The notes beneath the pieces are model-generated. The model did no database searches, was not told the origin of the DNA, and saw nothing but the letters and a program-made list of their open reading frames with translations. From Bacillales bacterium (GTDB lineage: Bacteria > Bacillota_I > Bacilli_A > RF39 > UBA660): DNA of 64,000 nucleotides. The DNA lies in contig JAEEKI010000014.1 of assembly GCA_016282375.1 (NCBI GenBank), forward strand, positions 85,791-149,790, read 5' to 3'. Made by a program: the position numbers and the translations under genes. This document shows, one piece after another, positions 26,425 to 44,800 of the stretch (position 1 is its first letter; every line of letters begins with the position of its first letter).

Positions 26425-27525
26425 CTATGGAGTTGATGGACCATCTAATGTGAAGCCAATGTTGAATGTTAAGAATGCACCAGATGCAGAAGTATCACAG
26501 TCGATATCTTGTCCTTCTATCCAGATATAAACCCGAATTTTTGTTACACCAGCACTTAATGATAAACCAATATCCATTGGATCACCTGTTCCTGATGAGA
26601 ATGCTGTATTAGTTCTCTTAATATTGCTACCTGTCATAGCAGTAAATACTGAACTGTTATCAGTAGCATTTGTATTAGGCCATGCTATTTCATTAGCATC
26701 TGAGATAGTTGTCTTAACTCCATCCCATGAAACCCAATCGTTACCACTACTATTAGCAGTTAATGATGCATATGTTGCATTAGCTACGGTACCATAAGTA
26801 TAATCTTGATAATACAAACGAGCTTGTTCAATACCGTATGCATTGTGTCCATCATAATTTGGTTCAACAATAATTGCACTACTTCCACCAGTATAACCTG
26901 CTAATGTTTTTGGATCAGTTGTTGCAGTATTATTACCTTCTACGATAAACGCATACCTAGCAGCATATTGAGCACCTTTATCAGCTTTCGTAGCTGTAAC
27001 AGTAGCACCAGAACCTGCATCTAAGTATACGGTTCCTGCTTCATCTAGTTTTAAGAAAATATCGAAGGCGATAAAATCACCAATTGTTGTTGATTTTGCT
27101 TCAGGTGATGCAACTGCTGTTAAGCCTAAAACGCCATCATTATTTTTATCTTCAATAGTTCCTTTAAACATTGCCATCTTTCCACTTGATATGGCACCTA
27201 CAGTAGATACTGGTACAAGATTAGTTAAACTGAACATATTTTCATCAACTAAGTCATTTGTATCATCGTTATCAGTTGTATCAAATGAATATCCTGTAGT
27301 TATATCACCATTAGAAATTAATGTCTTCCATGTATTTGCATCCGTCGAAATTTGGATACCACTACTCGTAGCAACGGTTACATTAATGGCATCAATAGTA
27401 ACATTTCTATTTGCCGTAAACCATGCATACGTTGATGTTGCTAACAAAATTATTGTCAGGAATAGCAGTAGCAGTAAAGAACCTAATTTTCTTTTCTTCT
27501 TTCCATTTTTCTTTTTAGAACTCAT
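26425..27525 (-). CDS. exported protein with SipW-cognate (TasA-like) N-terminus
   Basis: KKKRK-LLLLLFLTIILLATSTYAWFTAN. C-terminal motif IRVYIWIEGQDIDCD is shared with the upstream gene. Confidence 0.65.
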   Translation of the reverse strand: MSSKKKNGKKKRKLGSLLLLLFLTIILLATSTYAWFTANRNVTIDAINVTVATSSGIQISTDANTWKTLISNGDITTGYSFDTTDNDDTNDLVDENMFSLTNLVPVSTVGAISSGKMAMFKGTIEDKNNDGVLGLTAVASPEAKSTTIGDFIAFDIFLKLDEAGTVYLDAGSGATVTATKADKGAQYAARYAFIVEGNNTATTDPKTLAGYTGGSSAIIVEPNYDGHNAYGIEQARLYYQDYTYGTVANATYASLTANSSGNDWVSWDGVKTTISDANEIAWPNTNATDNSSVFTAMTGSNIKRTNTAFSSGTGDPMDIGLSLSAGVTKIRVYIWIEGQDIDCDTSASGAFLTFNIGFTLDGPSTP

Positions 27526-27545
27526 TTAATTCACTCCATTTCATT

Positions 27546-28253
27546 CTATTTCGTATTTATATGTTCTTCAGTGACTTTCATGTGCATCTTTAATTGACCA
27601 CCAACTAAAGCATCAACACAATCCGGGTCATCACCCTCAATCCATATAACTACAGTAATTTTATCAAATTCACCCGGAGCCAAATTCTTACGCACTTCGC
27701 TAATTATGGTTCCGTCCTCTTTAGGTTTAAAACCGATAGTATCTTTTTCTGGCTGTCCATCCATGTGGTTTACTTTGGCATAAATCTTTTTATCATCGTT
27801 AACAAAAATCATTACTCTTATTGCTTCATCAACATCTTTAACGACATCATCTTCAATCATTTCATACCAGTAATTAAAGACTGTATCGCTTTGATTCTCA
27901 ACATAGAATGTGTAAGCTATGTAATTATCACCATTATGGGAACCTTCTGCTTCATCATTGATATTATCAGGAATCCAACGAATAGATATGTTATCCATAA
28001 ATTGGAGATTTTCCGCTGATAATCTTCTTTTAGGCGTTGGATCTTTTTGGGATTCATAAATAGCCATACCACTTTCTAATTGTTTGTTGTCTTTGATACT
28101 AACATAAAAACTACCATTGTTCATTTTAAATCCTAGTACGATATAAACACCAAACATCAGAATTAATAAAAGTAAAATTGCTAGTTTAAGTTTTCTACCA
28201 AAACTCTGCCACCATTTGACTTTCGAGGCAGTTACAATGACATCTTTAGCCAC
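27546..28253 (-). CDS. membrane-anchored paralogue of the 26425-27525 product
   Basis: One TM helix (LAILLLLILMFGVYIVLGF). C-terminus ITVVIWIEGDDPDCVD parallels IWIEGQDIDCD. GTG start with GGGAG RBS. Confidence 0.55.
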   Translation of the reverse strand: MAKDVIVTASKVKWWQSFGRKLKLAILLLLILMFGVYIVLGFKMNNGSFYVSIKDNKQLESGMAIYESQKDPTPKRRLSAENLQFMDNISIRWIPDNINDEAEGSHNGDNYIAYTFYVENQSDTVFNYWYEMIEDDVVKDVDEAIRVMIFVNDDKKIYAKVNHMDGQPEKDTIGFKPKEDGTIISEVRKNLAPGEFDKITVVIWIEGDDPDCVDALVGGQLKMHMKVTEEHINTK

Positions 28254-28470
28254 ATAACCACTCCCTTCAGAAAACGTGGTTTTAAACTACAGTATATGAC
28301 TCACCTATCATATACATTACCATTATAATATATTGCTTTTTAGATTGCAACAATTTTTTTCCTTTTTTGATGTGTATTTACCACTGTAAATATCAAATGT
28401 CAATTTGACAAAGAAATTACATTTTAAGTGTATATTATTATATAATATATATGAATAAGGAGGAGTATCT

Positions 28471-29049
28471 ATGAGATATGGTAGAAAAATTGCTATATTC
28501 GCTGCTTTGATAGCCATGTTTTATTGTGTCTCATTGATTCAATCCACCTATGCTAAATACGTAACAAGCGCTGTTGGAACAGCAAATATGACCTTTGCAA
28601 GATGGAATATTCTAGTTAACGATCAAGATGTTGTTAATAATTCTAATTTTAGTACTACTATTCTTCCAGACTTTACAGGAACTACTAATATTCGCAGTGG
28701 TGTCATTGCACCTACTTCTCAAGGCTCATTTGATATTGAATTGGATATGACTGATGTTGACGTTAGTTTAGATTATACCATCTCTGCTGCTGTATCATCC
28801 AGTAATACAGTTACCGATTTAAAAATTATAAGTTACACCATTGATAATGTTACTACTCAATATACCAATAGTATTACTAATCGTGTATTACTAAGTAGTA
28901 CTGATCGTGTTGTAACAGTAACCTTTAATGTTGAATGGGTTGAAGATGCTCAAGATGGTGCTGTCATGAACAATGCTGCTGATACCGCTGCTGCTACAAG
29001 TGGTGTAGCTGCTATTGATGTAAGTGTTAACTTTGTTCAAGTTAGATAA
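28471..29049 (+). CDS. small TasA/camelysin-like exported protein (SipW-type signal)
   Basis: FYCVSLIQSTYAKYVTS and GVIAPTSQGSFDIELD. Clear paralogue of 36900-37511. AAGGAGGAG RBS. Confidence 0.65.
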   Translation: MRYGRKIAIFAALIAMFYCVSLIQSTYAKYVTSAVGTANMTFARWNILVNDQDVVNNSNFSTTILPDFTGTTNIRSGVIAPTSQGSFDIELDMTDVDVSLDYTISAAVSSSNTVTDLKIISYTIDNVTTQYTNSITNRVLLSSTDRVVTVTFNVEWVEDAQDGAVMNNAADTAAATSGVAAIDVSVNFVQVR

Positions 29050-29066
29050 TAAATACGGAGACTATT

Positions 29067-29654
29067 ATGATTACTTTTACCAAAGGTTATGAATTAACCA
29101 CCTCTTTAACTAATATAGTCATTTTTATAGTTAGTTTATATTCAGTACTAATGATTAAAAACAAAAAATGGAAACTGTTCTTTATTCTGATGTCAATTAA
29201 TTCCCTACTAGGAACCATTGTCCATGGTATTGAATTAAATAGTGTTTTAAAGGATGCTATATGGAATATACTCTCAATCCTCTTTGTCTTTACTATTAAT
29301 CTGTTCTTAAGCATTTTTATGAATATTAAAATGAAACACTTTATGTATTTATCTGTCATAACTAGCATCATTTTAATTGTTCTTTACTATTTGGATATGA
29401 ATTTCTTACTTGTTTATACTTTTTATGTATTATTAATCATTATCCTAAGTTTTTATAAAATTCTTAAAAGCAAATTAAATAATAAAAAATATTTTATTAT
29501 TGGTTACATAGTTCAAATTATTGGTGGTGTTTTGTTACTAATGAGAGTTCATCTAAACTATTTAAACTATAATGGTATCTATCATTTATTTATGGCTTTA
29601 ACCTTAGTATTCTTTTATCTAGGAGTTCAAGTGGATAAAGAAAAGAAAGAATAA
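29067..29654 (+). CDS. polytopic membrane protein (6-7 TM), unknown function
   Basis: Hydrophobic throughout. 17 nt downstream of the preceding gene. Confidence 0.55.
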   Translation: MITFTKGYELTTSLTNIVIFIVSLYSVLMIKNKKWKLFFILMSINSLLGTIVHGIELNSVLKDAIWNILSILFVFTINLFLSIFMNIKMKHFMYLSVITSIILIVLYYLDMNFLLVYTFYVLLIIILSFYKILKSKLNNKKYFIIGYIVQIIGGVLLLMRVHLNYLNYNGIYHLFMALTLVFFYLGVQVDKEKKE

Positions 29655-29689
29655 AAAAATATGTTAAGTTTTATTTAACATATTTTTTT
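29653..29689. terminator. bidirectional terminator between convergent genes
   Basis: AAAAAAATATGTTAA-loop-TTAACATATTTTTTT. Confidence 0.7.
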
Positions 29690-30434
29690 ATGGTTCCTCA
29701 GGTTCTTCAGGCTCATTAGGTTCAGGAGGATTATTTTGATTATTCTGGTTATTATTACTTTGACTAACATATATTTTTACTCTTAAAGTAATACTCGGCT
29801 CTAAAGGATAATCGGTGGCATATTCATAGGCTTTATTGCCCCAGTAGGTATCTTCTTCATCATCACCAGATTCAAAAGGCCATTGAACATTTACCGTAAA
29901 AATCGAAGAACTAGTTACATCATTAATGATCTCCGAAAGATTAGCTTGAGAAAGACTAAAAGTAATCGTAAAGGGATAATCTGTGGCCAACATCGTTTCT
30001 AATTCTGCGGATGTCATGTCATCTTGTTGCACTTGCTCATGATTATCAATTCTACCCTCTTCAGTAACATATTCTTCATCAAAGATACGCGCTTCCAAAA
30101 TATTATATGTAATACTGGCCGCTATTTCACTTTCATTAGCAATGGTTAAATTATCAACATAATTGCCCATACCAGGATATACTTCCGAAATGTTTACATT
30201 ATAGTAATCCGATAAAACTGTTTCACCAGATTGGAACAATACATTCCAAGCTCGAACGTGAGCATCAATACTACTTGATACTTTGTTTGAATAAACAAAC
30301 CAAGCATAAGTATTTCCTACCAATAATATTATTAAAAATACTATTTGATGAGGTTTAAGTACTTTCTTAAGGTTTTTAAGAATTATCTTTAGTTTCTTCT
30401 TGTTCTTGTTCATCTTCATCTTCCTCATCTTCAA
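29688..30434 (-). CDS. exported protein with SipW-cognate N-terminus and N/Q/P/E-rich tail
   Basis: IVFLIILLVGNTYAWFVYSN. The start is uncertain (TTG at 30434; ATGs at 30428, 30419 and 30413) and overlaps the end of the upstream peptidase-like gene. Confidence 0.6.
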   Translation of the reverse strand: MKMRKMKMNKNKKKLKIILKNLKKVLKPHQIVFLIILLVGNTYAWFVYSNKVSSSIDAHVRAWNVLFQSGETVLSDYYNVNISEVYPGMGNYVDNLTIANESEIAASITYNILEARIFDEEYVTEEGRIDNHEQVQQDDMTSAELETMLATDYPFTITFSLSQANLSEIINDVTSSSIFTVNVQWPFESGDDEEDTYWGNKAYEYATDYPLEPSITLRVKIYVSQSNNNQNNQNNPPEPNEPEEPEEP

Positions 30435-30978
30435 ATTTAATTTTTACGATTTGATAAGATGCATATAACCCTACGATTGTAAATAATGTATAGTATGAAT
30501 AGTTATTACTCATTAAACGACCAAAGTAACTAAAGACAACTGTTTTATAAAAAACTTTTCCATATATTTGGGAATAAGATATTTCAGGATCTTCGTATTC
30601 ATTCGAAGTACCTTTGGTAATGTAATAATAATCATCATTATCTTTTCTAATGGATAATATTTTGTGAGTTATTATTAAATCATTTAGATTACCCTTTTTA
30701 CCTAGATATGTTACATTATCTCCGACTTTTAATTCGGAAGCAGGAACTTCTTTAATAACAATAATATCTCCGATAGAATATTCCTCTTTCATTGATTCTG
30801 ATGCAACGCTAAAGACACGATATCCCATAATAGCTTTATTGTTGAAAAATTTTTGAATTAAGACAACACATAAAGCAATGAATAAAAAGATAGAAAAGAT
30901 AATCTTTACTACCTTCCATGATATATATAATGCTTTATTATTATCTAGTTTATCTTTTATTTCTTTTAATTTTCTCAT
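30376..30978 (-). CDS. SipW-like (S26B) signal peptidase paralogue, partly divergent
   Basis: VFSVASESMKEEYSIGDIIVIKE, ITHKI and ITKGTSNEYEDP align with the SipW motifs SGSMEP / HR / GDAN..D. N- and C-terminal TM helices, acidic tail. AGGAG RBS precedes the ATG at 30978, 1 nt after the upstream stop. Confidence 0.6.
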   Translation of the reverse strand: MRKLKEIKDKLDNNKALYISWKVVKIIFSIFLFIALCVVLIQKFFNNKAIMGYRVFSVASESMKEEYSIGDIIVIKEVPASELKVGDNVTYLGKKGNLNDLIITHKILSIRKDNDDYYYITKGTSNEYEDPEISYSQIYGKVFYKTVVFSYFGRLMSNNYSYYTLFTIVGLYASYQIVKIKFEDEEDEDEQEQEETKDNS

Positions 30979-30979
30979 T

Positions 30980-32110
30980 TTAACTCCTAAACTCGAAACT
31001 AACAATTTTACTAATGGTACTTTGAATTTTAACATTAAGTTTTTGTTGAATTTCTTCGATTGTGGCTTCCTTCTTATTACGAATAACCGCAATTTTATCG
31101 CCAATAACCTTTTGTAACTCTTCAAGTGGTAAGTCAGAATTGATTTCTACGATTTTCGTAATCATATTATTAGTAAGTGTTTCAACTAATTCTTTATTAT
31201 TATCTTGTTTAGCCGCTTTAGCATTATCTCCTAAACTATTAACAATTAAATAGTTTAATAAGAATACATCATCAAACATATTTTTAACAGTAACATTTTC
31301 TTTGATAGTGTTACTTGTTTTTGTTGTCTTATTACCATTATCAATATATGCTTGTAAATAATTCCATAATTTCATGGCATATTGAAAGTTGGTATTTTTT
31401 AAAATAAGATTTGTTTTCTTAATTGGCGGTGTTACTCTTGCTACGTTAGCTTTGTCTAGTAATTTAAAAACATCAGTTCTAGTTAAGTCTGAAACTTGCA
31501 ATTCAAGTTTATCAATTCTTTCTTCGACAGTTAAATCATTATTACGTCCATATTCAGATGATGTATTAGATTTCGAAGCCATCGAAACATTAATATCGAC
31601 TAATTCCGAACCCACTCTTGATGTGCCATGATATTCACTTTTCTTACTATCTTTAACAAAGGATTTAGTGATTAAATCCCTTTTCTTCATAGAAATAAAC
31701 ATTTGCATGTTTTTAATCAATGTATAAATTACTCTGTTTTCGTATGTATTATAGTTTTCATCTTTATTAATGTTTAAAATCTTCGAAGGTTTAACATCAC
31801 CGTTTTTCTCGATTTTTTGAATCATACTTGTATTACGAGCTAAATGTTTAATACTTTCAACGGTTACTCTTCGAGCTTTTTCAACATTAACAACTTCTTC
31901 TTCATTAATAATGAAACGGTTGGGGTTTCTTAAGATGTTATCAATATACATTACGGTACCTTCCATTAATTCCAACCATTCAAAATCAGCCTCAAAGGAT
32001 TCAACATTAGTACTTACAGTATATTCTGATTTAACACTATTGTTGAAAGAAGCAATTTTTCTAGCATCGGTTTTTGTATATAAGTCTAATACCTTTAATT
32101 CTTGATCCAT
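30980..32110 (-). CDS. McrC-N-terminal-like (DUF2357-like) partner protein with no recognisable nuclease
   Basis: NYNTYENRVIYTLIKNM resembles E. coli McrC NEDTLANRIIKSTLAIL. No PD-(D/E)xK motif found by eye. Helical/coiled C-terminus. Starts 10 nt after the McrB-like gene. Confidence 0.5.
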   Translation of the reverse strand: MDQELKVLDLYTKTDARKIASFNNSVKSEYTVSTNVESFEADFEWLELMEGTVMYIDNILRNPNRFIINEEEVVNVEKARRVTVESIKHLARNTSMIQKIEKNGDVKPSKILNINKDENYNTYENRVIYTLIKNMQMFISMKKRDLITKSFVKDSKKSEYHGTSRVGSELVDINVSMASKSNTSSEYGRNNDLTVEERIDKLELQVSDLTRTDVFKLLDKANVARVTPPIKKTNLILKNTNFQYAMKLWNYLQAYIDNGNKTTKTSNTIKENVTVKNMFDDVFLLNYLIVNSLGDNAKAAKQDNNKELVETLTNNMITKIVEINSDLPLEELQKVIGDKIAVIRNKKEATIEEIQQKLNVKIQSTISKIVSFEFRS

Positions 32111-32120
32111 AGTCTACTCC

Positions 32121-33653
32121 CTAAGACATCTTCTTAAGTCTTAAAAGAGTTTCGATACATTCATGCATCGTATCTTTTCCAAACGTTTTATCCAAAAATT
32201 CAATAAAGCCATCAATTTCATCTCTAATGTAAGAAATGTTTAATTGTTCAAATTTTCTTAAAATCTTTTTAGCAATAAAGTAATCGACACCATCTAATTC
32301 ACTACCACCGCAAGCAACAAAGACAGGAACAAACTTTCTCATATGAGCAACAATACGGTTACCAAAAGCGATACGGAAATGAGATATTACATAATCATCC
32401 ATTTCATTAATTTTATTCAAAGTTTCTTCTTTGATTGGATTGGCTTCCATTGCTTCTTTAAATTTCTTATTTAAATATGTGAAATTAACATCTTGAGCAT
32501 CAACTTCTTGAGGTGTGAAAACTTTACCTTTATCGTTGATATCGATAGGCATAGCACGGTCATAAACTTTATCAGTTACCATGAATGTTGAGTCATCGTT
32601 ATTGATTGTACCAATGTACCATACATTTTCAGGAATTTTAATTTTACCATTTTTAAGTCTCTTAGGGTCACTCTTCCATGAAGAAGCAACAACTTCGATA
32701 ATCCATTCATCTTTGTTAGGCATTTCTAGAATGGATAGCATTTCGGCAAAATAATACTCAACTCTGGAGATGTTCATTTCATCTAGGATAATGGTATAAA
32801 TATCATCTGTATAACCTGCTTCATATAATACTTTTAAGATATCTGTTTCATTGAACTTCTTAGTAAATTCGTTAAAGTAACCAAATAGTTCAGAACGATC
32901 ACGCCATGATGGTTGAACGGAAGCAACACAAGAGTCATGCTTCAAAAATTTTCCCCATGCATAAGCAAGTGATGTTTTACCTGTACCAGAGATACCTTGT
33001 AGAATAACAAGTTTTGTACTGGCTAATGCTGCCACATATAATCTAATCATTTCTGTTGTATAATACAAACCTAATTTACTAGCAGCAAAATTTCTAAATA
33101 ATTCTACAAACTCTGGTAATTCAAAATTATTACCATATTCTTGAATTTTATAATTAGCATATGCTATATCAACATCATTAAGTTTTGAGAAACGAATATC
33201 TGTATTTTGATCAACAGAGTCTCCTTCTTGTGGTTCTCCACTTACTTCTTCTTGGTCTGTTTCATTAGGTTTTAATCCTAAATGTGATACTTTCATAGCT
33301 AAGATTTCTTCTTTTTCTTGAACTAAAGTAGCTACTTTATTATTTAAAGTAGATATTTCTTCTAACATAGATTCTTGTTCAACAAGCGTTTTTCTAAAAC
33401 GAACATATTTTCTTAATAAGAAAACAATAAATAAAATAACAGCACCAATAAGGACAACAAGAATAATCGCCGCAATGCCAAAAAGAACCCACTCCCCAAT
33501 TCCGAAGTCAGATTTATATTGCCCTACAATTTTTAAATAGTCCTTAAAGCCAAACATTTTCGCAAAACCATTAATAATTCCTAATAGAATAGCTTTAATT
33601 CCTGAAAAAAATTGGGCTAAAAAATCGTATAAGAATGTAAAAAATGTGCTCAT
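32121..33653 (-). CDS. membrane-anchored McrB-like AAA+ GTPase
   Basis: Two N-terminal hydrophobic segments and a coiled coil. Motifs LQGISGTGKTS, VQPSWRDRSELFGYF, IILDEMNISRVEYYFAEMLSILE and IGTINNDDSTFMVTDKVYDRA follow the McrB motif order. Confidence 0.7.
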   Translation of the reverse strand: MSTFFTFLYDFLAQFFSGIKAILLGIINGFAKMFGFKDYLKIVGQYKSDFGIGEWVLFGIAAIILVVLIGAVILFIVFLLRKYVRFRKTLVEQESMLEEISTLNNKVATLVQEKEEILAMKVSHLGLKPNETDQEEVSGEPQEGDSVDQNTDIRFSKLNDVDIAYANYKIQEYGNNFELPEFVELFRNFAASKLGLYYTTEMIRLYVAALASTKLVILQGISGTGKTSLAYAWGKFLKHDSCVASVQPSWRDRSELFGYFNEFTKKFNETDILKVLYEAGYTDDIYTIILDEMNISRVEYYFAEMLSILEMPNKDEWIIEVVASSWKSDPKRLKNGKIKIPENVWYIGTINNDDSTFMVTDKVYDRAMPIDINDKGKVFTPQEVDAQDVNFTYLNKKFKEAMEANPIKEETLNKINEMDDYVISHFRIAFGNRIVAHMRKFVPVFVACGGSELDGVDYFIAKKILRKFEQLNISYIRDEIDGFIEFLDKTFGKDTMHECIETLLRLKKMS

Positions 33654-33660
33654 AAACACC

Positions 33661-34620
33661 TCATTGACTAACTATTTTTGCTTTTATCCTATCACTATTC
33701 TCTATAACTATATCATAATATTCATATTTTTCATATACAAAAACATATGAAAAGATATCAAGTATAGGAATATTATTATCAAAACTCTCATCTAAGATAA
33801 GAGCAACATTAAAACCGTTTTTAATAAAATTAGTAATTTTTTCTTGATATTTCAAGTAAGTTTCATAATTAATCCGAAAATGAACTCGAGATTTAACTAC
33901 CCTATTATCGAGTACTAAAATATACTTGTTAATCTTCTTCTCTTTAGCAAATAAAGATTCAGGGAAATCAACAATATAGTTTTCATTGAAATTAAGTTCA
34001 ATAGTATTTTTTAAAATATAACCTGATAGCATTAAAAATAATAAGTACTGTTTATTTTCTAATACGGTACCGGTATTATAGGCTTTATCAATAGCCCAAT
34101 CACTAAAGATTGGTGATAATTTACAATTTTGATTAATATCTACTTTCTTAAGATTTCTAGCAACTCGTTTAAAACTTATATTGAAATTTTTATCTTCGAA
34201 AACTGCTAAAAAATCCTTCCTTACTTTAATGAAATTGCTAACTAAATCTTTTAATTCTTCTTTTTTATCTTCTCTTAGTGATATATCCTCTGCAATTGTA
34301 TTTATCAAAGATGTTAAGCTTACATATTCACAGCAATCATCAATATATAAAATATAACCAAATAAGGTAAATATTTCTTTAACTTCTTCTTCAACACGCA
34401 TATCTTGCTTAATAATTTCTTTTGCAAGATTTTTTAATTCAGTGTTTAATTTATTAATAAAACTATATCCCCGACTATATACACTATTATTATAGTATCT
34501 TACGTCAATATACTTTTCAATAAAGGGCATTAGTAATTTCTTATCATAATTATTACCTAAAATGATTCGATAATAATTCATAAGAAAATTTTCAAAATAT
34601 TTAATATAATTATCTATCAT
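33661..34620 (-). CDS. hypothetical cytoplasmic protein (319 aa)
   Basis: No TM helix or signal. Tightly coupled to both neighbours. The C-terminal ~90 aa (FRINYETY...GFNVALILDESFDNN...YVFV) faintly resemble a degenerate EAL domain, by eye only. Confidence 0.45.
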   Translation of the reverse strand: MIDNYIKYFENFLMNYYRIILGNNYDKKLLMPFIEKYIDVRYYNNSVYSRGYSFINKLNTELKNLAKEIIKQDMRVEEEVKEIFTLFGYILYIDDCCEYVSLTSLINTIAEDISLREDKKEELKDLVSNFIKVRKDFLAVFEDKNFNISFKRVARNLKKVDINQNCKLSPIFSDWAIDKAYNTGTVLENKQYLLFLMLSGYILKNTIELNFNENYIVDFPESLFAKEKKINKYILVLDNRVVKSRVHFRINYETYLKYQEKITNFIKNGFNVALILDESFDNNIPILDIFSYVFVYEKYEYYDIVIENSDRIKAKIVSQ

Positions 34621-34628
34621 TTTTCCTC

Positions 34629-35561
34629 CTATATAGCACTAAAAGTAATGATCGACGGATCATTGTCATGTGGATATGTATAGTCTTCCGAGACATCTAT
34701 TTTATAAAAACGCACGACATTACTACTCATTGGTTCAACATCAAAAGTAATCGACGAAACATAAGCTACACCATTAACTGTCGTGGTTGTATATGTTGCA
34801 CTATTTAATAAATTACTAGTGGAATCTATAACCACATCGTTAGGATCAAAAGTTAGTGTTACTCTTGCTGAAAAACACTTTGCTTGATCAGCTGCACTTA
34901 ACGCCATATATTCTGCAAGAGTAAAATCATGATATATTTCATAATCACCAAAGGCTTCACCTGCTATATATTGGTCACGAGCATTAGTAATAGTAAGATC
35001 TAAGTATGGACGATTGACTTCATCGCTAATTTCATATCCGATACCTTGACGACCTACCGTAATAACAAATACTGCACTTAAAACTTTAACATATGGTGTT
35101 GATGAAGTAGCAGTAATGGTTACAGTTACAGAGTCACCCGTATTAAAGATTCTTTGGGGAGTAATGATTATTTCATAATCATCTGTCATTTCTGAACCAT
35201 AGATGACACCAGATACATTATCAATGGAGCTAGTTACTCCCGAAGAATGAGTAACATTAACTGTATACTCAATATCGCTATCACTAACTAACAAGTTATT
35301 TTTATGGTTATTCAAAGAAAATTGAATTTTAAAATTACTAACTCCACTCCAGTTATTAACATTGTATGTAATCGCAGGATTACCAAGTTTGTCACTGTTA
35401 AAATAGAAATTACTGGTTTTAATTAAATAATCACCAATAAAGTCATGGACATATTTAGAAAAAGTTATTCCCACAGGAACAAGTATTAATAATAACAACA
35501 TTATTAATAAGATTCTTACTTTTTTTCGCATCTTTATTTTATATGTTTTCTTATTACCCAT
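34629..35561 (-). CDS. exported protein with SipW-type N-terminus
   Basis: LLLLILVPVGITFSKYVHDF after a basic N-terminus. Ser/Thr-rich, beta-type composition. Confidence 0.55.
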   Translation of the reverse strand: MGNKKTYKIKMRKKVRILLIMLLLLILVPVGITFSKYVHDFIGDYLIKTSNFYFNSDKLGNPAITYNVNNWSGVSNFKIQFSLNNHKNNLLVSDSDIEYTVNVTHSSGVTSSIDNVSGVIYGSEMTDDYEIIITPQRIFNTGDSVTVTITATSSTPYVKVLSAVFVITVGRQGIGYEISDEVNRPYLDLTITNARDQYIAGEAFGDYEIYHDFTLAEYMALSAADQAKCFSARVTLTFDPNDVVIDSTSNLLNSATYTTTTVNGVAYVSSITFDVEPMSSNVVRFYKIDVSEDYTYPHDNDPSIITFSAI

Positions 35562-35597
35562 ACTGCACCTATTGTAATTGTATCAAAATTACAAAAA

Positions 35598-36191
35598 TTA
35601 AACAACTTGTTCTGCAGTAATAATAACACTTAGTAATTCAATTTTGCCTTGGTACTCTGGATGATTTTGATTAGATAATGGGTAATAAACCGCTATTGTA
35701 TAATAATCTTGTTCATTGGTTGTGTAATGAAAACGATAGTCTTGAGATGTATCATATATTTTGTAATATACATCATCATCCATCCGAGAACTTGTTGAAG
35801 TAATAATATTGGTAGCATTGGCACTATAATCTTCGTTTCGATAAACACTAATTGTAATTGGCAAATTAGTTGTTGTCTCAAATTTAATATGATAATCTAA
35901 ATCAACATTAGTCCTGATAGAATCTTTATAATTGCGAACATTTATAACATATGTATATACTTGATTTGATGGTTCTAATCCCTCTAGTGCGATAGAGGCT
36001 GTTGATGTTCCTTGATCAACTAAAAAAACGGCTATACTAGCTTGAACATTCATATTAGCGGTTGACTCATAGCGTGAATATGTTACATCAATAAGATTGA
36101 TAATAAAGACCACAACTAAAACAAGTATTGTAATATGAATTGCAATACTTAGTCTCTTCTTATCAAATTTTGATGCAAAAGTGTCTGTCAT
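35598..36191 (-). CDS. small exported TasA-like protein
   Basis: LVVVFIINLIDVTYSRYESTANM. The start overlaps the sipW stop by 1 nt (TAATG). Confidence 0.55.
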   Translation of the reverse strand: MTDTFASKFDKKRLSIAIHITILVLVVVFIINLIDVTYSRYESTANMNVQASIAVFLVDQGTSTASIALEGLEPSNQVYTYVINVRNYKDSIRTNVDLDYHIKFETTTNLPITISVYRNEDYSANATNIITSTSSRMDDDVYYKIYDTSQDYRFHYTTNEQDYYTIAVYYPLSNQNHPEYQGKIELLSVIITAEQVV

Positions 36192-36886
36192 TATTCACCT
36201 TTATCTAATTTGGATTCTATTTCTTTTTGAATACTAGATAAATCTAAACCGATGGTATATTCTAAGTTTTTCTTATCTTCTTCACTTTCGGCAGACATAA
36301 CTTTTTTATAGATAGCCTCAAGTTCTTCTTTACTTATATTATTAATATCAATTTTATTACTGTCATTTTCGATTTTTTCTGATTTAACAGTTGCTTTATC
36401 ACTTTTAAAGCCTTTATATGAAAAAGCAAAATCAAACAATATTAAAGTGACAAAAATCATGATAATTACTTTCGGAGATGTTAAGATTTTTTGCCATATT
36501 CCCGCACTAGGAAAAATATGGATTACTTTACCTATTACTATTTCTTTTGGAATAGCAGGATCATCAGTGTTATTAGCGTCTCCCCTAGTAATATAGTTAT
36601 TATCACTTATTTGCATAATACGATGCGTAATATAAGAACCCTCTTTAACAAAAGTTATAATATCATCTTCTTTATAGTCATCCATTTTCTTAACAAGAAT
36701 AATATCTTCCTTTTTTATGGTAGGTTCCATACTTCCGGTAGCCACATTAAATACTGAGTATCCAAATACTTCAAAATAATCTTTTTGACTAATCATCATT
36801 TTGACTTTAGCAAAGATCATAATTGCTAAAACCACAAAAACAATAATAGTTAAAATGTTTATAATGATTTCTGCTACCTTTCTCAT
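36191..36886 (-). CDS. sipW: signal peptidase I, SipW (archaeal/ER, S26B) type
   Basis: FNVATGSMEPTIKKEDIILVKK, ITHRI and TRGDANNTDD. N- and C-terminal TM helices. Confidence 0.75.
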   Translation of the reverse strand: MRKVAEIIINILTIIVFVVLAIMIFAKVKMMISQKDYFEVFGYSVFNVATGSMEPTIKKEDIILVKKMDDYKEDDIITFVKEGSYITHRIMQISDNNYITRGDANNTDDPAIPKEIVIGKVIHIFPSAGIWQKILTSPKVIIMIFVTLILFDFAFSYKGFKSDKATVKSEKIENDSNKIDINNISKEELEAIYKKVMSAESEEDKKNLEYTIGLDLSSIQKEIESKLDKGE

Positions 36887-36899
36887 ATTTTACCTCTTT

Positions 36900-37511
36900 T
36901 TACTCATCAATATATTCCACTAGCGTTTCTCCTAAATACTGTATAACAGTAATCTGAGCTGGAATACTTATGCTCGCATTCGATGTTAAACCTAAATTTG
37001 TATCGCTTTGATCATACGTTGAATTATTGGTCCACTCTACGACAATTCTTAATCTTGCCGTATCACCATTAGCAATTTGGGCTAAAGTAATAATGCCTGA
37101 ATATGTACTTTCACCAGTTCTAACCATGGTACCATTTAAATCAGTAACATAGTATGTAATATTTTCGCCATAATTTTGTTCCATATCCAAAGTTATGTCA
37201 TATCTGATTGCTACATCTGTATCTTCTGGATCAATGATTACATCAAAATACCCACTTCTACCAGGTGCAATTACACCATTTTCAATATGTGAACTAACAC
37301 TATAATTAAAATTACTGGCTACAAACGATATAGTCTGTCCAGAAGAAATATCCATATCATTAAGCCTAATGGTCCAATTACCAATATTAAAATTTCCTGT
37401 TCCATTAGCTAATGTCTCATAGACTGCAAAGGAATCAGAAATTAAACTTAACAAGAAGACCATGGAAATAAATACGCCTATATATAGTATTGTCTTTACC
37501 TTTGTTTTCAT
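36900..37511 (-). CDS. small TasA/camelysin-like exported protein
   Basis: LLSLISDSFAVYETLANG and NGVIAPGRSGYFDVIIDPEDTD. Paralogue of 28471-29049. Confidence 0.65.
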   Translation of the reverse strand: MKTKVKTILYIGVFISMVFLLSLISDSFAVYETLANGTGNFNIGNWTIRLNDMDISSGQTISFVASNFNYSVSSHIENGVIAPGRSGYFDVIIDPEDTDVAIRYDITLDMEQNYGENITYYVTDLNGTMVRTGESTYSGIITLAQIANGDTARLRIVVEWTNNSTYDQSDTNLGLTSNASISIPAQITVIQYLGETLVEYIDE

Positions 37512-38081
37512 CTATTCATTTTCGTCTTCATCTTTATCTACTTCAGATAATTCTTTCGCAGATTTTTTCTTTACTTCAAGAGCAATTGTATATATTTCAT
37601 AAACAAATGCATACAATGTTGGTAATATTATTAAGAACATGAAACCCCATTTAGATTCTAATAAGCCTAAAATTAAACCTAGTTTTTCAATTTTTAAAGC
37701 ACCATTAGCTACACCAAGAATATCATTATATGATACTTGAGCATCATTAAAGTAGAAAGAATCTTCAGCTCCATCTACTCTTTCAGCACTTTCAATAACA
37801 CCAAAATTGATATAGCTTCTAGTCTCTCTGTTACCATAACGGAAGAAAGCACCACTACCTTCGGTGTATTCTGATTCAAGGCCTTTGGTTACAACAATAA
37901 TATCATATTTATTAAAGCCATATTGTTCAAGTGAACGATTATCAATTACAAATAAAGATGTATCACCGAATTCACTGTATCCATATTCATTCAAAGATAA
38001 TAAACATATAGTTGTAAAAATAGCTATTATCACCCATGCTCCAATAAGTATTTCTTTAATAAAATTTAATATTGCCTTCAT
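37512..38081 (-). CDS. SipW-like protein with apparently lost catalytic residues (pseudo-peptidase)
   Basis: Same topology as SipW (N-TM, beta core, C-TM, acidic tail). The SGSMEP position reads NRSLEQ and the THR position reads FFRY. Confidence 0.45.
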   Translation of the reverse strand: MKAILNFIKEILIGAWVIIAIFTTICLLSLNEYGYSEFGDTSLFVIDNRSLEQYGFNKYDIIVVTKGLESEYTEGSGAFFRYGNRETRSYINFGVIESAERVDGAEDSFYFNDAQVSYNDILGVANGALKIEKLGLILGLLESKWGFMFLIILPTLYAFVYEIYTIALEVKKKSAKELSEVDKDEDENE

Positions 38082-38192
38082 ATTCTCACCAATATTATGA
38101 TAGCATAAAAAAAATCAATTGTAAAACAAAAGCCAATGTAAAAAGCATCTACAAATAATTTTAAAGATCAATCTACATAAACCAAACTAAGA

Positions 38193-40237: not shown

Positions 40238-40239
40238 TA

Positions 40240-41821: not shown

Positions 41822-44800
41822 CTACTTAATTATTATATATTTTTCTACGGTTCCAATCAATGAGGAATTATCATATAGCATGAAATCTAAACGATATGTA
41901 CCTGGTGTTAAATCATCTTTCATCGTTAGATTTAATGTAGTTGTAGCCGTAGGATTATTTAAAATCAAATATTCATTGGCATTAGCCGTTGCAAGGAAAG
42001 TATTGCTTACATAATCTGTAATATCAACTGCTTCATACTCTGTAGTGGTTTCCATATCATATTTTCGACGTAACATTTTAATCCTTATAGATGGATTAGT
42101 TAATCCAGAGTTATAACTAATTGTACATGTTACATTATTACTATTATTTAAGGTATAACCTGTGTCTTTATAAACAATCATATCTTTGTTGGCAATTTCA
42201 ACATCTAAACCATAGATTTCATTAACAATGTAAATTGGGAAATCAATATAATCAGATGTTTCAACACCATAATAGATACCATCTGGTGAACCAAAGGACT
42301 CTACTCTTAAAACATAATTACCAGTTGTAAAGCTTGATGTTCCCGTTTTTACTTTAATCCAAGTTTGAATATTACCTACGTGATCAGCAATTTTAATTCT
42401 CGTTGTACCATCAATACTTGGTGAATAATTAACTTCATTTATTTCGTAAGTTAACCCTAACATAGAAACCCCAGATACAACATTGCCTTGAGAATTGAAT
42501 AAAGTAAGTTTTAATCCTACTTTAGAATCAAACATATGTGTATCATAAATAACATTAGTACCAACAGATGATTGAGTATAATTAGTTTGTAAATTTAATG
42601 TTACAGTTTCACCACTATATATAGTATTACTACTGATAGTTCCATTAATATCAATGACGGCATCTAATCCATCATAGACATCATAGTACATATTAGCTTC
42701 TTGAATACCTAAAACACTGACAATAGTTTGATTATTACCATCTTGTAGTTCGAACAAAAGATAATTATCTAAAGAATCATCTTCGAATTCCGTGTCATCA
42801 AAATCAATAATAAAAATAAACTCTTCCTGGCAATAGTCACCAATTTGTCGGTAATACTCAGCATTTTTCAGGGCGTCATTATAGAGGACTCCACTGTTGA
42901 AAGCACCCATGACTTCAAACATTGACAAGTTATAAGATGCTTCACCATGGAATGATATTTGATTTTCAGCATTAGCTACTTCAGCAGCAGTTATAACATG
43001 ATAATAATACTTAGCATCATCCATACTTAAATCAATCATTGTAATTTTTGTATTTTCTGGCAAAGCAATATTTGATACTAAAGCTCGATGATATCCATTA
43101 CCATAAACATTTTGATCTTGAGCATATAGTGAGAAATATGCACTGATTGATGATTTTGAAGATATTTTTGTTGGTGAAGAAATAAATAAATCATATTTTC
43201 TACCCGCTGTTAAAGATGCTTCATAGTCGTTTGTGGTAAATAAGATACGCGAAATATTTACGTTAATGATTAATGTTTCAGGATCCGTCGTTAAATCATC
43301 AATTCGGCTAGTAACCCGTAACATTATTTGAATTGTTCCAATTGACCCCGCCGTTTGAATGTTTTTAGAGTGATATAAATAAAATTGTAACGATGGTACA
43401 TTGGTACTGTTTTCACCAACATAACTATGTAAACCTTGAATTTGTGGAGTGGTATTACTATAGAATGAGGTTGATCCAACTGTTAACCAACCTGAGTTAC
43501 TTGTTTCCATAGAAAGTCCAATTGTTTTATCTACAGTTGCTAGATTTGATGAAACTTTAGGAATAGAATTCTTACTAATTACTTGGACACCACTTTCCAA
43601 ACCTGTAAAGTCTACTCTCATGATTTCAAAAGTAGTATTTGGTACTGTATAATCGATTAATGGTAATTCCACAGCACCTAAAGTAGAATACTTAGATGCC
43701 ACTAAGTTTACTTCATATGTTTGAACATATTCACCAACAATCCACATGTACATTGGAGCATCTGCTGGTGTTGGTTCAATATACTTAACTGTGTTTACAC
43801 CTTCAGCATCGACAAAGTTACTATAGAATCCGTCAGCCGTAATATCATGATCCGTTTTATGTGCACCTAGAACATAAGAACCAGTTGTAAACATACCACT
43901 GTTTAGGTCAACATGATCACCATAGTCATAATCATCATAAATACCTACAACAACCGAGTTATTAGCACCATATTTAAATAGTCCAAAGAAAGTCATTCCA
44001 TAAACATTACCATATGATGATAATGTTTCATTAGCAATGTTTAAGACTTTGTTGTTGGCACCATACATATAAATACGATTATCAACATTCTTTTGAACAG
44101 TATGATTAGTATCATCAATTTCAACAGTTGCTAAAGCACCTGTTGAGGTTAAACTCTTATAGCTTTGAAGGGCATTAGCACCAGTTTCTAAGAATAATGT
44201 TGAATTATTTTTTAAATCTAATTCTTCGATAATAGATAATGTAAATAATACATCACTATATTCGTTTGTTCTATCGGTTGCTCCACTTAATGTTAAAGCA
44301 GAGTTATCAATAACTAAAAGGTCAGTTCTTTGAATGGAAACATTATGTTTTGGATTACTAAATGTTCCATAGTTTTTAATATTAATAGTACTTGTACCAG
44401 TTGTTGTTGAAGCATTACCACTTCCAAAAATAGAACCTAAAATATCAAAATTATTATAATTTAAGGCGTTAATGTTAACAGCAATTGAGGATGTTACACC
44501 GACGAAGTGCCAGTCGTAGTTTTCTGAACCGGAAGCGTTTGCTTCACCACCACCGAAGACTGTACCACGAATATCAACAGTCCCTCTTGTAGATTCAGCA
44601 GTCGTAGCAACATCAGCACCAATATCAACGGTAGTTCCGCCGTACACAACTGATGTATTAGCTCCACCATAAACATTACCATAGATTGTTGCACCAAGTA
44701 CTTTAACATTTGAATATGAATTATTAGTAACAGAATCACCTGTAAAGGCTGCATTTCCGCCACCAAATAATGAACATTGTGATTTAACTACGCAGCTAGC

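What the first reader, a model, noticed from the sequence alone, without database searches (positions are those of the whole stretch)
30980..34620. Membrane-anchored McrB-like GTPase and nuclease-less McrC-like partner, translationally coupled inside a SipW/TasA-type export operon
The ORF at 32121-33653 carries the McrB motif series in the correct order: LQGISGTGKTS; VQPSWRDRSELFGYF; IILDEMNISRVEYYFAEMLSILE; IGTINNDDSTFMVTDKVYDRA. Where McrB has a DNA-reading N-domain, this protein has two hydrophobic segments, a ~40-aa coiled coil and an acidic linker.
Ten nt downstream, the ORF at 30980-32110 has the McrC N-terminal-type segment NYNTYENRVIYTLIKNM (compare E. coli McrC NEDTLANRIIKSTLAIL). I can find no PD-(D/E)xK nuclease motif in it, and its C-terminal half looks helical.
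The upstream ORF at 33661-34620 has no recognisable family; its tail faintly resembles a degenerate EAL domain, by eye only. Its stop is 7 nt from the McrB-like start.
All three genes are wedged by gaps of 1-10 nt between exported TasA-like proteins and SipW-like peptidases, so they are operon members rather than an independent insertion.
Canonical McrBC is a cytoplasmic DNA-restriction motor. A membrane-tethered, apparently nuclease-free version inside a fibre/export operon suggests one of two things. It could be a co-opted AAA+ assembly or extraction motor for the fibre subunits, or an envelope-located sensing/defence module. I am not aware that either has been described.
Basis: partly seen in the sequence, partly recalled or inferred. 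Interest (0 to 1): 0.88.

Follow-up and report, generated by a model that had tools for sequence, protein, structure and literature searches.

The report
McrBC-like GTPase inside fibre-export operon
A membrane-anchored relative of the McrB restriction GTPase and a nuclease-free McrC-like partner sit inside a conserved surface-fibre gene cluster of uncultured gut Bacilli (RF39); this arrangement was named "CoCoPALM" in one paragraph of a 2024 paper but has never been studied.

Summary
On the minus strand, 33661-34620 (319 aa), 32121-33653 (510 aa) and 30980-32110 (376 aa) are separated by 7 and 10 nt. They lie 8 nt after an exported protein and 1 nt before a SipW-type peptidase.

- **The 510-aa protein** has two hydrophobic N-terminal segments, a short coiled coil and a McrB-type AAA+ domain with the NxD(D/E) signature.
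- **The 376-aa protein** has the McrC N-terminal domain (DUF2357) and no detectable or conserved nuclease site.
- **The 319-aa protein** models confidently as an EAL-like fold with no EAL sequence signature.

The gene order is kept in all but a few of 84 related loci, from RF39-type MAGs, and in part in a 44% GC lineage. The GTPase is by far the slowest-evolving gene.

This is not a new class. Bell et al. (eLife 2024) named NxD McrB GTPases with a transmembrane and coiled-coil anchor linked to signal peptidases "CoCoPALM" and deferred their analysis.

"TasA-like" is not supported by sequence for the exported proteins.

Most likely the pair is a cytoplasmic GTPase engine or switch for assembling SipW-processed surface fibres, not a restriction enzyme. 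That function is inferred.

The parts
32121..33653 (-). Membrane-anchored McrB-like AAA+ GTPase of the NxD branch, 510 aa. It has an N-terminal amphipathic/hydrophobic segment, a transmembrane helix at about 57-82 followed by RKYVRFRK, a coiled coil at about 87-123, an acidic linker at 126-160, and the NTPase domain at about 195-512.
   Evidence: - PDB and NCBIfam best hits are McrB.
- PADLOC PDC-M26A gives E=1.2e-36.
- The signature GT[AI]NxD[DE]STF is family-wide.
- Transmembrane segments and heptad signal.
- Identity is 67-91% across 84 loci.
30980..32110 (-). McrC-like partner, 376 aa. The DUF2357 core is about residues 40-276, with conserved blocks TYENR and PIKKTNxILKNxNFQYAxxLW. The helical tail at 277-376 is poorly conserved. 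No nuclease.
   Evidence: - Pfam DUF2357 above the gathering score.
- hhalign probability 99.6% to residues 49-286 of an 861-aa McrC-like protein in locus L152.
- No nuclease signal.
33661..34620 (-). 319-aa cytoplasmic protein with a degenerate EAL-like fold. It is the fastest-evolving gene of the trio and was found only in the RF39-type loci.
   Evidence: - AlphaFold2 pLDDT 92.
- The first 42 Foldseek hits are EAL domains, TM 0.35-0.55.
- No Pfam or PDB sequence match.
- Present in 83 of 84 loci at a median 31% identity.
30376..30978 (-). SipW-type (archaeal-type) signal peptidase I. The SM and TH catalytic motifs are kept.
   Evidence: TIGR02228 E=2.6e-20, above its cut-off. Motif conservation. 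Present in 82 of 84 loci.
36191..36886 (-). Second SipW-type signal peptidase I, with GSMEPT, ITHR and KGDxNN motifs.
   Evidence: TIGR02228 E=8.1e-24. Pfam Peptidase_S24. Motifs.
37512..38081 (-). S26-like paralogue that lacks the catalytic Ser-Met and His motifs; probably a pseudo-peptidase.
   Evidence: Profile cross-hits to both SipW paralogues at about 1e-9. Motifs absent.
34629..35561 (-). Signal-anchored exported protein, 310 aa, directly upstream of the trio.
   Evidence: Present in 80 of 84 loci. Transmembrane helix followed by a T.GRY motif. No family hit.
36900..37511 (-). Exported pilin-like protein, group A (motif FAVYE after the anchor).
   Evidence: Paralogue of 28471-29049. Motif.
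35598..36191 (-). Exported pilin-like protein, group A-like (motif YSRYES).
29688..30434 (-). Exported pilin-like protein, group B (motif TYAWF).
   Evidence: Present in 80 of 84 loci. Motif.
28471..29049 (+). Exported pilin-like protein, group A (motif TYAKY). It lies on the opposite strand to the rest of the cluster; in 71 of the 72 related loci that carry a copy it is also on the strand opposite the cluster.
27546..28253 (-). Conserved signal-anchored protein, 235 aa, with motifs GSHNGDNY and WIEGDDPDC. It is the second most conserved member of the cluster and is also present in the 44% GC relatives.
   Evidence: Median identity 50%. E=2e-61 in L152. Shares a C-terminal motif with 26425-27525.
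26425..27525 (-). Exported pilin-like protein, group B (motif TYAWFT; C-terminal WIEGQDIDC).
41822..50719 (-). Giant 2965-aa surface protein with glycine-rich repeats; a likely adhesin of the cluster. It lies upstream here but downstream of the cluster in most related loci.
   Evidence: Homologues in 38 loci. No Pfam hit.

Best explanation
This is a CoCoPALM-type locus. It is a vertically inherited surface-fibre (pilus-like) gene cluster of RF39-type gut Bacilli in which a McrBC module has lost its restriction role.

**Shown:**
- The GTPase keeps the McrB NTPase machinery in its NxD(D/E) form.
- It is tethered to the membrane by hydrophobic segments and a short coiled coil. The basic stretch after the transmembrane helix points to a cytoplasmic NTPase domain.
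- The partner keeps only the McrC N-terminal domain. In McrBC this domain inserts into the McrB hexamer and stimulates GTP hydrolysis.
- The neighbours are two intact SipW-type peptidases and one degenerate copy. There are also seven to eight signal-anchored proteins with conserved aromatic motifs just after the anchor.

**Inferred:**
- A membrane-tethered McrB-like hexamer, plugged and activated by the McrC-like subunit, uses GTP hydrolysis to drive or gate a step at the cytoplasmic face.
- That step could be releasing the membrane-anchored subunits for SipW cleavage and polymerisation, or organising the assembly site. This would be analogous in logic to the ATPase, platform and prepilin peptidase of type IV pili.
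- The EAL-fold protein is a lineage-specific regulator, possibly a nucleotide receptor like the degenerate EAL domain of FimX.
For: **Family placement**
- McrB placement.
- The NxD(D/E) signature is found across the nearest 150 family representatives. This matches the published definition.
- DUF2357 in the partner.

**Conserved context**
- The core order is 310-aa protein, EAL-like, McrB-like, McrC-like, SipW, then pilin-like genes. It is kept in all but a few of 84 loci from distinct species-level genomes; 149 genomes matched in all.
- One of these genomes, CAG-914, is classified GTDB RF39/UBA660.
- A 44% GC lineage carries pilin, SipW, a McrB-like gene 51% identical over the aligned region (residues 21-509 of 510), and a McrC-like gene.
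- The anchor-plus-[YFW][AS]WF signal occurs in 24 ORFs of the metagenome set. These fall in exactly the 9 metagenome loci that have SipW.

**Evolutionary rate**
- The GTPase shows 70-74% median identity, against 27-56% for every other gene of the cluster. A conserved engine with variable fibre subunits would give this pattern.

**No defence hallmarks**
- No nuclease or other effector was found in the cluster.
- There is no close copy on 72,556 plasmids or 50,697 phages; the best is 38.5% identity over the NTPase domain only.
- SipW-less relatives still sit next to surface proteins with transglutaminase, AgI/II and MBG domains.

**Precedents**
- PcdA is a McrB-family protein co-opted for cell division.
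- In C. perfringens, efficient secretion of SipW-dependent BsaA oligomers depends on some type IV pilus-associated genes (pilA1, pilB1, pilN, pilO); the authors call that result not definitive.
Against: - No experiment exists for any CoCoPALM.
- The exported proteins have no detectable homology to TasA or to any known pilin. That they form a fibre is therefore inferred from context.
- The known SipW/TasA-type fibres (TasA; BsaA) have no dedicated NTPase of their own, although BsaA secretion is helped by type IV pilus genes, so an engine is not obviously required.
- The McrC-like structure prediction failed (pLDDT 47). The absence of a nuclease therefore rests on sequence and conservation only.
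- The GTPase core is related to a PADLOC defence-candidate family, PDC-M26A.
- In this genome the cluster abuts a defence island.
- Homology of the anchor to FtsB, part of the published definition, was not detected by Pfam.
Confidence: 0.55

Rival explanations
1. The pair is a regulatory switch or scaffold rather than a motor. The membrane-tethered GTPase ring, with its McrC-like activator as a timer, marks where or when the fibre is assembled, for example at the pole or division site. Alternatively it gates SipW activity. The EAL-like protein would supply the input signal.
For: - The anchor is a transmembrane helix plus a short coiled coil of the FtsB type, according to the published description.
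- PcdA shows that a McrB-family protein can act as a positional factor.
- An EAL-fold partner whose structural matches include the c-di-GMP-binding EAL domains of FimX and LapD suggests signal input.
- TasA-type fibres can polymerise without energy input (for BsaA).
Against: - The extreme conservation of the whole NTPase domain and of the DUF2357 activator block fits sustained catalytic cycling at least as well as a switch.
- The EAL-like gene is missing from the 44% GC relatives, so signal input is not a core part of the system.
Confidence: 0.25
2. The pair is an envelope-located anti-phage module. It would be a CoCoNuT-like McrBC derivative that senses phage attack at the fibre or membrane and triggers an abortive response through an unidentified effector.
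For: - The NTPase core hits the PADLOC candidate PDC-M26A at E=1.2e-36.
- Its nearest annotated relatives are long anchor-less AAA proteins on plasmids, of the CoCoNuT type.
- The family descends from restriction systems.
- A defence island lies next to the cluster in this genome.
Against: - No nuclease, HEPN or other effector lies in or beside the pair. The published CoCoNuT rule is that a nuclease-less McrC is always accompanied by another nuclease.
- The position inside a conserved operon is fixed in 84 loci.
- The GTPase is 70-74% identical across species and is the slowest-evolving gene.
- The three island genes tested (23208-25850, 22795-23196, 21161-22792) are absent from all related loci.
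- There is no close copy on plasmids or phages.
Confidence: 0.12
3. The pair is a decaying restriction remnant that hitch-hiked into the operon and has no function.
For: The nuclease domain and the DNA-binding domain have been lost.
Against: - The reading frames are intact and tightly coupled.
- The NTPase motifs are invariant.
- Identity of 67-91% across 84 loci and 51% identity to a 44% GC lineage indicate strong purifying selection.
Confidence: 0.03

Closest known systems
[quoted passage not shown]
   Same: - A McrB-like GTPase of the NxD branch.
- A transmembrane helix plus coiled coil fused at the N-terminus.
- Association with signal peptidase family proteins.
- A McrC homologue that is adjacent and DUF2357-based.
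   Different: - The published description is one paragraph with no data shown in the text held here.
- The RF39 form has only a short coiled coil in the GTPase.
- No heptad signal is detectable in the McrC-like protein. A 44% GC relative has a coiled-coil region spanning about residues 315-600 of its 861-aa McrC-like protein.
- The RF39 form has an extra EAL-fold gene that the paper does not mention.
CoCoNuT systems (same paper); probably the PADLOC candidate PDC-M26
   Same: - The same NxD(D/E) GTPase branch.
- The N-terminal DNA-binding domain is replaced by a coiled coil.
- The McrC homologue often lacks an active nuclease.
   Different: - CoCoNuTs are soluble and have long coiled coils.
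- When the McrC nuclease is missing they are always accompanied by HEPN or another nuclease.
- They are predicted defence systems.
- Here there is a membrane anchor, no nuclease anywhere in the cluster, and a fibre-export context.
Canonical McrBC type IV restriction enzyme (E. coli; PDB 6HZ4, 6UT6)
   Same: - The AAA+ core with Walker A, Walker B (DExN), an Asn-Asp signature motif and an arginine finger, all alignable.
- A partner with the ring-inserting N-terminal domain.
   Different: - No DNA-reading N-domain.
- NxD rather than NxxD.
- No PD-(D/E)xK nuclease.
- Membrane-tethered.
- The score is far below the McrB equivalog cut-off (24.8 against 637 bits).
PcdA of Staphylococcus aureus (PMC10602043)
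   Same: A McrB-family NTPase that has been co-opted from restriction to a cell-envelope process.
   Different: PcdA has EVE domains, no membrane anchor and no McrC-like partner. It acts on FtsZ and DivIVA.
TapA-SipW-TasA of Bacillus subtilis and SipW-BsaA of Clostridium perfringens (PMC11580942)
   Same: A dedicated archaeal-type signal peptidase is encoded with its signal-anchored substrates. These carry an aromatic motif at the cleavage region: TasA has GGGTWAAFN and this cluster has TSTYAWFT.
   Different: - The substrates here show no detectable TasA or camelysin homology.
- Neither known system encodes an NTPase.
- This cluster has three peptidase paralogues and seven to eight substrates.
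FimX-PilZ-PilB control of type IV pilus assembly (PDB 4FOU, 4AG0)
   Same: A degenerate EAL-fold protein is encoded or acts next to the NTPase of a pilus system. FimX EAL domains are among the best structural matches.
   Different: - No sequence similarity.
- c-di-GMP binding is untested.
- The NTPase belongs to a different family.

Membership tests
McrB-family AAA+ GTPase | Walker A GxxGxGK[ST] and Walker B hhhDE in an AAA+ core that aligns to McrB | tested here: met
   GISGTGKT and ILDEMN align to E. coli McrB. McrB chains are the only three PDB sequence matches at E up to 1 (best E=1.1e-4). NCBIfam McrB gives E=8e-6.
McrB-family AAA+ GTPase | Asn-Asp signature motif (NxxD, or NxD in the variant branch) after sensor 1 | tested here: met
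   NNDD lies opposite NTAD. GT[AI]NxD[DE]STF is seen across the nearest 150 family representatives. This matches 'NxD usually followed by E or D'.
McrB-family AAA+ GTPase | Scores as a McrB equivalog or as Pfam AAA_5 | tested here: not met
   24.8 bits against a cut-off of 637. No AAA_5 hit at E<=0.1. It is a divergent branch, not an orthologue of E. coli McrB.
McrB-family AAA+ GTPase | N-terminal DNA-binding specificity domain | tested here: not met
   Residues 1-160 are hydrophobic segments, a coiled coil and an acidic linker.
McrB-family AAA+ GTPase | GTP-specific hydrolysis stimulated by the McrC partner; hexamer formation | not testable with these tools
   This needs biochemistry or multimer modelling.
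McrC / DUF2357 | McrC N-terminal domain (DUF2357) encoded next to the GTPase | tested here: met
   PF09823 E=9.2e-8, 32 bits above the cut-off of 23.3. The gene starts 10 nt downstream. 119 of the 120 listed homologues carry PF09823.
McrC / DUF2357 | C-terminal PD-(D/E)xK nuclease | tested here: not met
   - No Pfam hit on residues 185-376.
- No PDB hit by sequence or profile.
- After about residue 250 the 84 orthologues share no D or E conserved above 90%; K276 is the only such charged column.
- The tail is replaced by a long coiled coil in a relative.
- The structure model is too poor to add anything.
CoCoPALM (Bell et al. 2024) | NxD-branch McrB-like GTPase | tested here: met
CoCoPALM (Bell et al. 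2024) | GTPase fused to an FtsB-like transmembrane helix plus coiled coil | tested here: inconclusive
   A transmembrane helix and a heptad segment at 87-123 are present. Homology to FtsB/DivIC was not detected by Pfam at E<=5. No HHpred-type test was possible.
CoCoPALM (Bell et al. 2024) | Association with signal peptidase family proteins | tested here: met
   Two TIGR02228 peptidases score above the cut-off in the operon. One follows the McrC-like gene after 1 nt. A peptidase is present in 82 of 84 loci.
CoCoPALM (Bell et al. 2024) | Coiled coil also in the McrC homologue (stated as 'usually') | tested here: not met
   A crude heptad scan finds no signal above the shuffled control in the 376-aa protein. 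The feature is present in the 861-aa homologue of L152.
CoCoNuT | An accompanying nuclease (active McrC nuclease, HEPN or other) in the operon | tested here: not met
   No nuclease family was hit in any gene from 26425 to 41724.
SipW/TasA fibre system | Archaeal-type (SipW-type) signal peptidase I | tested here: met
   TIGR02228 gives 72.9 and 84.3 bits against a cut-off of 51.85. The SipW Bacillus equivalog model scores below its cut-off.
SipW/TasA fibre system | Substrates of the TasA/camelysin (Peptidase_M73) family | tested here: not met
   No Pfam or NCBIfam hit for any exported protein. No PDB profile hit.
EAL domain | EAL-type fold | tested here: met
   The model has pLDDT 92. The first 42 Foldseek PDB hits are EAL domains, with E down to 3.4e-4, probability about 1.0 and TM 0.35-0.55. 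This is a moderate match, not a tight one.
EAL domain | EAL sequence signature and catalytic residues | tested here: not met
   PF00563 is not among the families reported for the 45 family members scanned (only the 25 commonest of 36 matched families are listed). There is no PDB sequence hit. Only a GxxxALxLDxxF remnant is visible by eye in the tail.
EAL domain | Cyclic-di-GMP binding or hydrolysis | not testable with these tools
   This needs a binding assay.

The most novel reading that the evidence does not exclude
The McrBC-derived ring is the dedicated motor of a previously uncharacterised kind of Gram-positive surface-fibre machine. Its parts would be:
- SipW-type peptidases in the role of the prepilin peptidase;
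- YAWF-type signal-anchored proteins of unknown fold as subunits;
- a conserved 235-aa membrane protein as the platform;
- in RF39, a degenerate EAL-fold nucleotide receptor as the regulator.

It would be a core, order-wide organelle of the uncultured, genome-reduced RF39 gut bacteria, possibly their means of attaching to host or partner cells.
Probability: 0.35. Interest if true: 0.8.

Novelty: new member of a known kind. Interest (0 to 1): 0.55.

Why it matters
If the inference holds, a restriction-enzyme motor has been turned into part of a cell-surface assembly machine. PcdA is the one prokaryotic precedent for such a shift found here.

The fibres of this machine are made of proteins that match no known pilin family.

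The cluster is present in at least 149 species-level genomes of RF39-type gut and rumen bacteria. These are abundant, uncultured organisms with genomes of about 1.3 Mb. Its GTPase is one of the most constrained proteins in the region.

That makes the cluster a candidate for how these organisms attach to hosts or partners. It also gives the untested CoCoPALM class a concrete example.

Tried and rejected
**Structure and profile searches that gave nothing**
- Structure prediction of the McrC-like protein from 35 close homologues gave pLDDT 47. It was not used for fold search.
- Sequence and profile searches of the McrC-like, EAL-like and pilin-like families against PDB sequences found nothing real. 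The one hit, to a designed repeat protein, is a transmembrane-helix artefact.
- Pfam scans of the GTPase N-terminus did not recover FtsB/DivIC.
- hhalign of the 319-aa family against the 861-aa McrC-like protein of L152, to test for a fusion, was negative.
- The giant protein has no Pfam hit.

**Literature**
- A search for "PDC-M26" found nothing.
- No paper on CoCoPALM later than the original was found.
- The supplements held for the eLife paper do not mention CoCoPALM.
- The TANB77 "conserved pilin" cluster (PMC11680825) was checked and rejected. It is a Tad pilus with a TadA/CpaF ATPase.

**Other**
- The promoter scan gave no more sites than chance in this AT-rich DNA, and the terminator scan found two against about four expected.
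- The GTPase's conservation could not be compared with housekeeping genes, because the flanks of the cluster are not shared between loci.

Full report
**1. What is there**

The window is about 28% GC. From 38081 down to 29688 it carries ten minus-strand genes with gaps of 0-36 nt or overlaps.

The three genes of the finding are real. Their junctions, read directly, are these:
- The 310-aa exported protein stops 8 nt before the ATG of the 319-aa gene.
- That gene's TGA lies 7 nt before the ATG at 33653.
- The TAG of the GTPase gene lies 10 nt before the ATG at 32110.
- The TAA of the McrC-like gene lies 1 nt before the ATG at 30978 of a signal peptidase.

Each start has a GGAG-type ribosome-binding site. 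The mechanical ORF begins at a GTG (33659).

**2. The 510-aa protein**

- **Family searches.** Pfam finds no AAA_5. The three PDB sequence matches (E up to 1) are all E. coli McrB (best E=1.1e-4). NCBIfam's McrB model gives E=8e-6, far below its equivalog cut-off.
- **Motifs.** In the HMMER alignment, Walker A (GISGTGKT), Walker B (LDEMN against DEIN), the signature (NNDD against NTAD) and the arginine of YDRA (against LRRRF) all line up.
- **Size of the family.** A search of 1.84 billion cluster representatives finds 8451 relatives at E up to 0.001 and 759 at E up to 1e-30.
- **Shared signature.** The nearest 150 representatives share GT[AI]NxD[DE]STF.
- **N-terminal region.** Residues 1-35 are amphipathic and hydrophobic. 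Residues about 57-82 form a strong transmembrane helix followed by RKYVRFRK, so the remainder is cytoplasmic by the positive-inside rule (inference). Residues 87-123 give the best heptad signal in the protein, marginally above shuffled controls (0.60 against 0.58). Residues 126-160 are acidic.
- **Architectures among relatives**. One group is 450-520 aa with one or two transmembrane helices, like this protein. A second is 550-700 aa with four to six transmembrane helices. A third is 700-870 aa without any; PADLOC's candidate PDC-M26A (E=1.2e-36) probably belongs to this third kind.

**3. The 376-aa protein**

It matches DUF2357 above Pfam's threshold. The CoCoNuT paper equates DUF2357 with the McrC N-terminal domain.

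hhalign shows that residues 40-276 are homologous (probability 99.6%) to residues 49-286 of an 861-aa protein that follows a McrB-like gene in locus L152. The tails differ: about 100 helical residues here, and about 575 residues there, of which roughly 315-600 match coiled-coil families.

No nuclease is detectable:
- The tail has no Pfam hit.
- There is no PDB hit by sequence or profile.
- 119 of the 120 listed homologues carry only PF09823; one truncated sequence carries none.
- After about residue 250, the 84 orthologues share no D or E conserved above 90%; K276 is the only such charged column.

The AlphaFold model was too poor to use (pLDDT 47). This conclusion therefore rests on sequence alone.

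**4. The 319-aa protein**

It has no sequence family. It models at pLDDT 92, and its first 42 Foldseek PDB matches are all EAL domains. They include Bd1971, FimX, MorA, RocR and LapD, with E down to 3.4e-4 and TM 0.35-0.55.

The tail GFNVALILDESFDNN resembles, by eye, the EAL GxxxALDDFGTG strand. The canonical catalytic signature is not conserved.

This gene evolves fastest, with a median 31% identity. It is absent from the more distant relatives.

**5. The neighbours**

- **Peptidases.** 36191-36886 and 30376-30978 are archaeal-type signal peptidases (TIGR02228 above its cut-off) with the catalytic motifs conserved. 37512-38081 is a paralogue that lacks those motifs.
- **Exported proteins.** Seven or eight genes encode proteins with a signal anchor followed at once by a conserved aromatic motif. 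Group A has YAKY, FAVYE or YSRYE. Group B has TYAWF(T/V).
- **No TasA link.** None of these proteins matches TasA, camelysin or any other model. "TasA-like" is therefore an analogy, not a family assignment.
- **Shared motif.** The 235-aa and 366-aa families share a C-terminal WIEG(Q/D)DxDC motif.

**6. Conservation**

A scan of one genome per GTDB species found 149 genomes with a relative. The 80 loci kept are 67-91% identical and come from MAGs labelled Bacilli, Mollicutes or Tenericutes. They also include Clostridium sp. CAG:914, CAG:628, CAG:567 and CAG:609.

CAG-914 is classified in GTDB as Bacilli_A, RF39, UBA660 (PMC13508870). Two of the contigs are about 1.26 Mb, and one of them is a circular chromosome.

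The order is 310-aa protein, EAL-like, McrB-like, McrC-like, SipW, pilin B, pilin A on the opposite strand, 235-aa protein, pilin B. It is kept in all but a few of the 84 loci. The flanks are not shared between loci.

The GTPase has a median identity of 70-74%. All other genes of the cluster lie at 27-56%.

**7. Beyond RF39**

A metagenome scan with distant anchored relatives gave two contexts.
- **Nine loci, of which L152 is 42-47% GC.** L152 carries pilin B, the 235-aa protein, pilin B, SipW, a McrB-like gene 51% identical to ours over residues 21-509 (anchor and coiled coil included), the long McrC-like gene, more pilins and a repeat adhesin; the other eight share most of this order.
- **Twenty-eight longer loci without SipW.** Most carry one McrC-like gene, usually flanked by two anchored McrB-like paralogues. 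In the two loci inspected (L111, L128) single-pass surface proteins follow, with transglutaminase, AgI/II and MBG domains.

In the metagenome set the anchor-plus-[YFW][AS]WF signal occurs in 24 ORFs. These fall in exactly the nine SipW loci.

The module is therefore linked to surface proteins in the loci inspected, and to SipW and YAWF-type substrates in one large branch. No restriction or modification genes turned up beside it in the two SipW-less loci whose neighbours were scanned against Pfam.

**8. What is already known**

Bell, Makarova, Wolf and Koonin (eLife 2024, PMC11090510) describe a McrB branch defined by NxD, usually followed by D or E. Within it they describe "another large clade":
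- The GTPase is fused to an FtsB-like transmembrane and coiled-coil domain.
- Coiled coils are usually present in both the McrB and the McrC homologues.

They name these systems CoCoPALM and defer them to a forthcoming paper. No later paper was found.

The locus meets the NxD and signal-peptidase criteria. It has the anchor architecture, though FtsB homology was not recovered here. It lacks the McrC coiled coil, which the paper describes only as usual. I file it as a member of that class, in a reduced form with an added EAL-fold gene.

**9. Mechanism**

Shown:
- The NTPase machinery is intact and under strong constraint.
- The activator domain is kept and the nuclease is gone.
- The protein is membrane-tethered.
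- The genes are embedded in, and co-inherited with, peptidase and substrate genes.

Inferred from McrBC structures (PMC6624300 and PMC7680126, abstracts seen):
- A hexameric ring is asymmetrically engaged and activated by the McrC-type subunit.
- Here its output would go to the membrane through the stalks.
- It would drive or gate the hand-over of signal-anchored subunits to SipW and the growing fibre.

The "conserved engine, variable subunits" rate pattern and the surface-protein context support this reading. A pure switch or scaffold role is the main rival. Defence is less likely, for four reasons:
- There is no effector.
- The operon position is fixed.
- The conservation is high.
- There is no close copy on plasmids or phages.

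**10. Context in this genome**

At 8.7-25.9 kb, just downstream, lies a defence island. It holds GmrSD, a DpnII restriction-modification system with two methylases, AIPR, PIF1-like, NERD-HRDC and UvrD-like proteins, Mrr, and a DUF2201 protein with an 880-aa P-loop protein.

Its last three genes are absent from all 84 related loci. Its proximity is therefore not evidence that the McrBC-like pair is a defence gene.

The other flank holds RecG, pyruvate:ferredoxin oxidoreductase and enolase.

**11. Verdict**

The thing itself is a member of a named but unexplored class. Interest is moderate to high, because the function is untested and the lineage-wide conservation is striking.

Noticed in passing
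window 8698-25850, minus strand: A defence island lies next to the fibre cluster. Its genes:
- GmrSD (8698-10791)
- DpnII endonuclease (10802-11659)
- N6/N4 methylase (11652-12434)
- AIPR (12443-14188)
- D12 methylase (14202-15059)
- PIF1-like helicase (15283-16908)
- NERD+HRDC protein (17353-18363)
- UvrD-like helicase (18421-20682)
- Mrr_cat protein (20745-21143)
- DUF2201 VWA/metallopeptidase (21161-22792)
- a 133-aa ORF
- an 880-aa P-loop protein (23208-25850)

The last three are absent from all 84 related loci.
   Followed up: partly
window 37512-38081, minus strand: A third S26/SipW-like paralogue lacks the catalytic Ser-Met and His motifs but is conserved in about 62 related loci. It is a probable pseudo-peptidase of unknown role.
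   Followed up: partly
window 27546-28253 and 26425-27525; L152 5767-8375: The 235-aa and 366-aa exported families share a C-terminal motif WIEG(Q/D)DxDC (hhalign probability 90.7%). The 235-aa protein is the second most conserved gene of the cluster and recurs at E=2e-61 in a 44% GC lineage. It matches no known family.
   Followed up: partly
L111 7188-15142; L128 10004-20990: Among the SipW-less metagenome relatives, the two loci inspected show two membrane-anchored McrB-like paralogues flanking one McrC-like gene, followed by single-pass surface proteins with transglutaminase, AgI/II-C2 and MBG domains. This may be a second, undescribed context for the anchored McrBC-like module.
   Followed up: partly
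window 41822-50719, minus strand: A 2965-aa protein with glycine-rich repeats has no Pfam hit. Homologues follow the cluster in most related loci, but here the gene lies upstream of it. This implies a local rearrangement, perhaps tied to insertion of the defence island.
   Followed up: partly
window 29067-29654, plus strand: A DUF6962 multi-pass membrane protein (E=2.5e-20) is inserted between cluster genes on the opposite strand. It has no counterpart in the 84 related loci.
   Followed up: no
window 51535-52317, minus strand: A 260-aa ORF matches only the N-terminal domain of S-adenosylmethionine synthetase (residues 3-73). It is possibly a truncated or divergent MetK.
   Followed up: no
window 38193-39449 and 39455-41724, minus strand: - The 418-aa protein has an ATYAFFS signal and a Cys-rich tail.
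- The 260-aa protein is a DUF4097 'toastrack' protein.
- The 494-aa protein has no family hit.

The 418-aa gene was found in none of the related loci, the DUF4097 gene in one, and the 494-aa gene in 18. They appear to be variable additions between the giant protein gene and the core operon.
   Followed up: no
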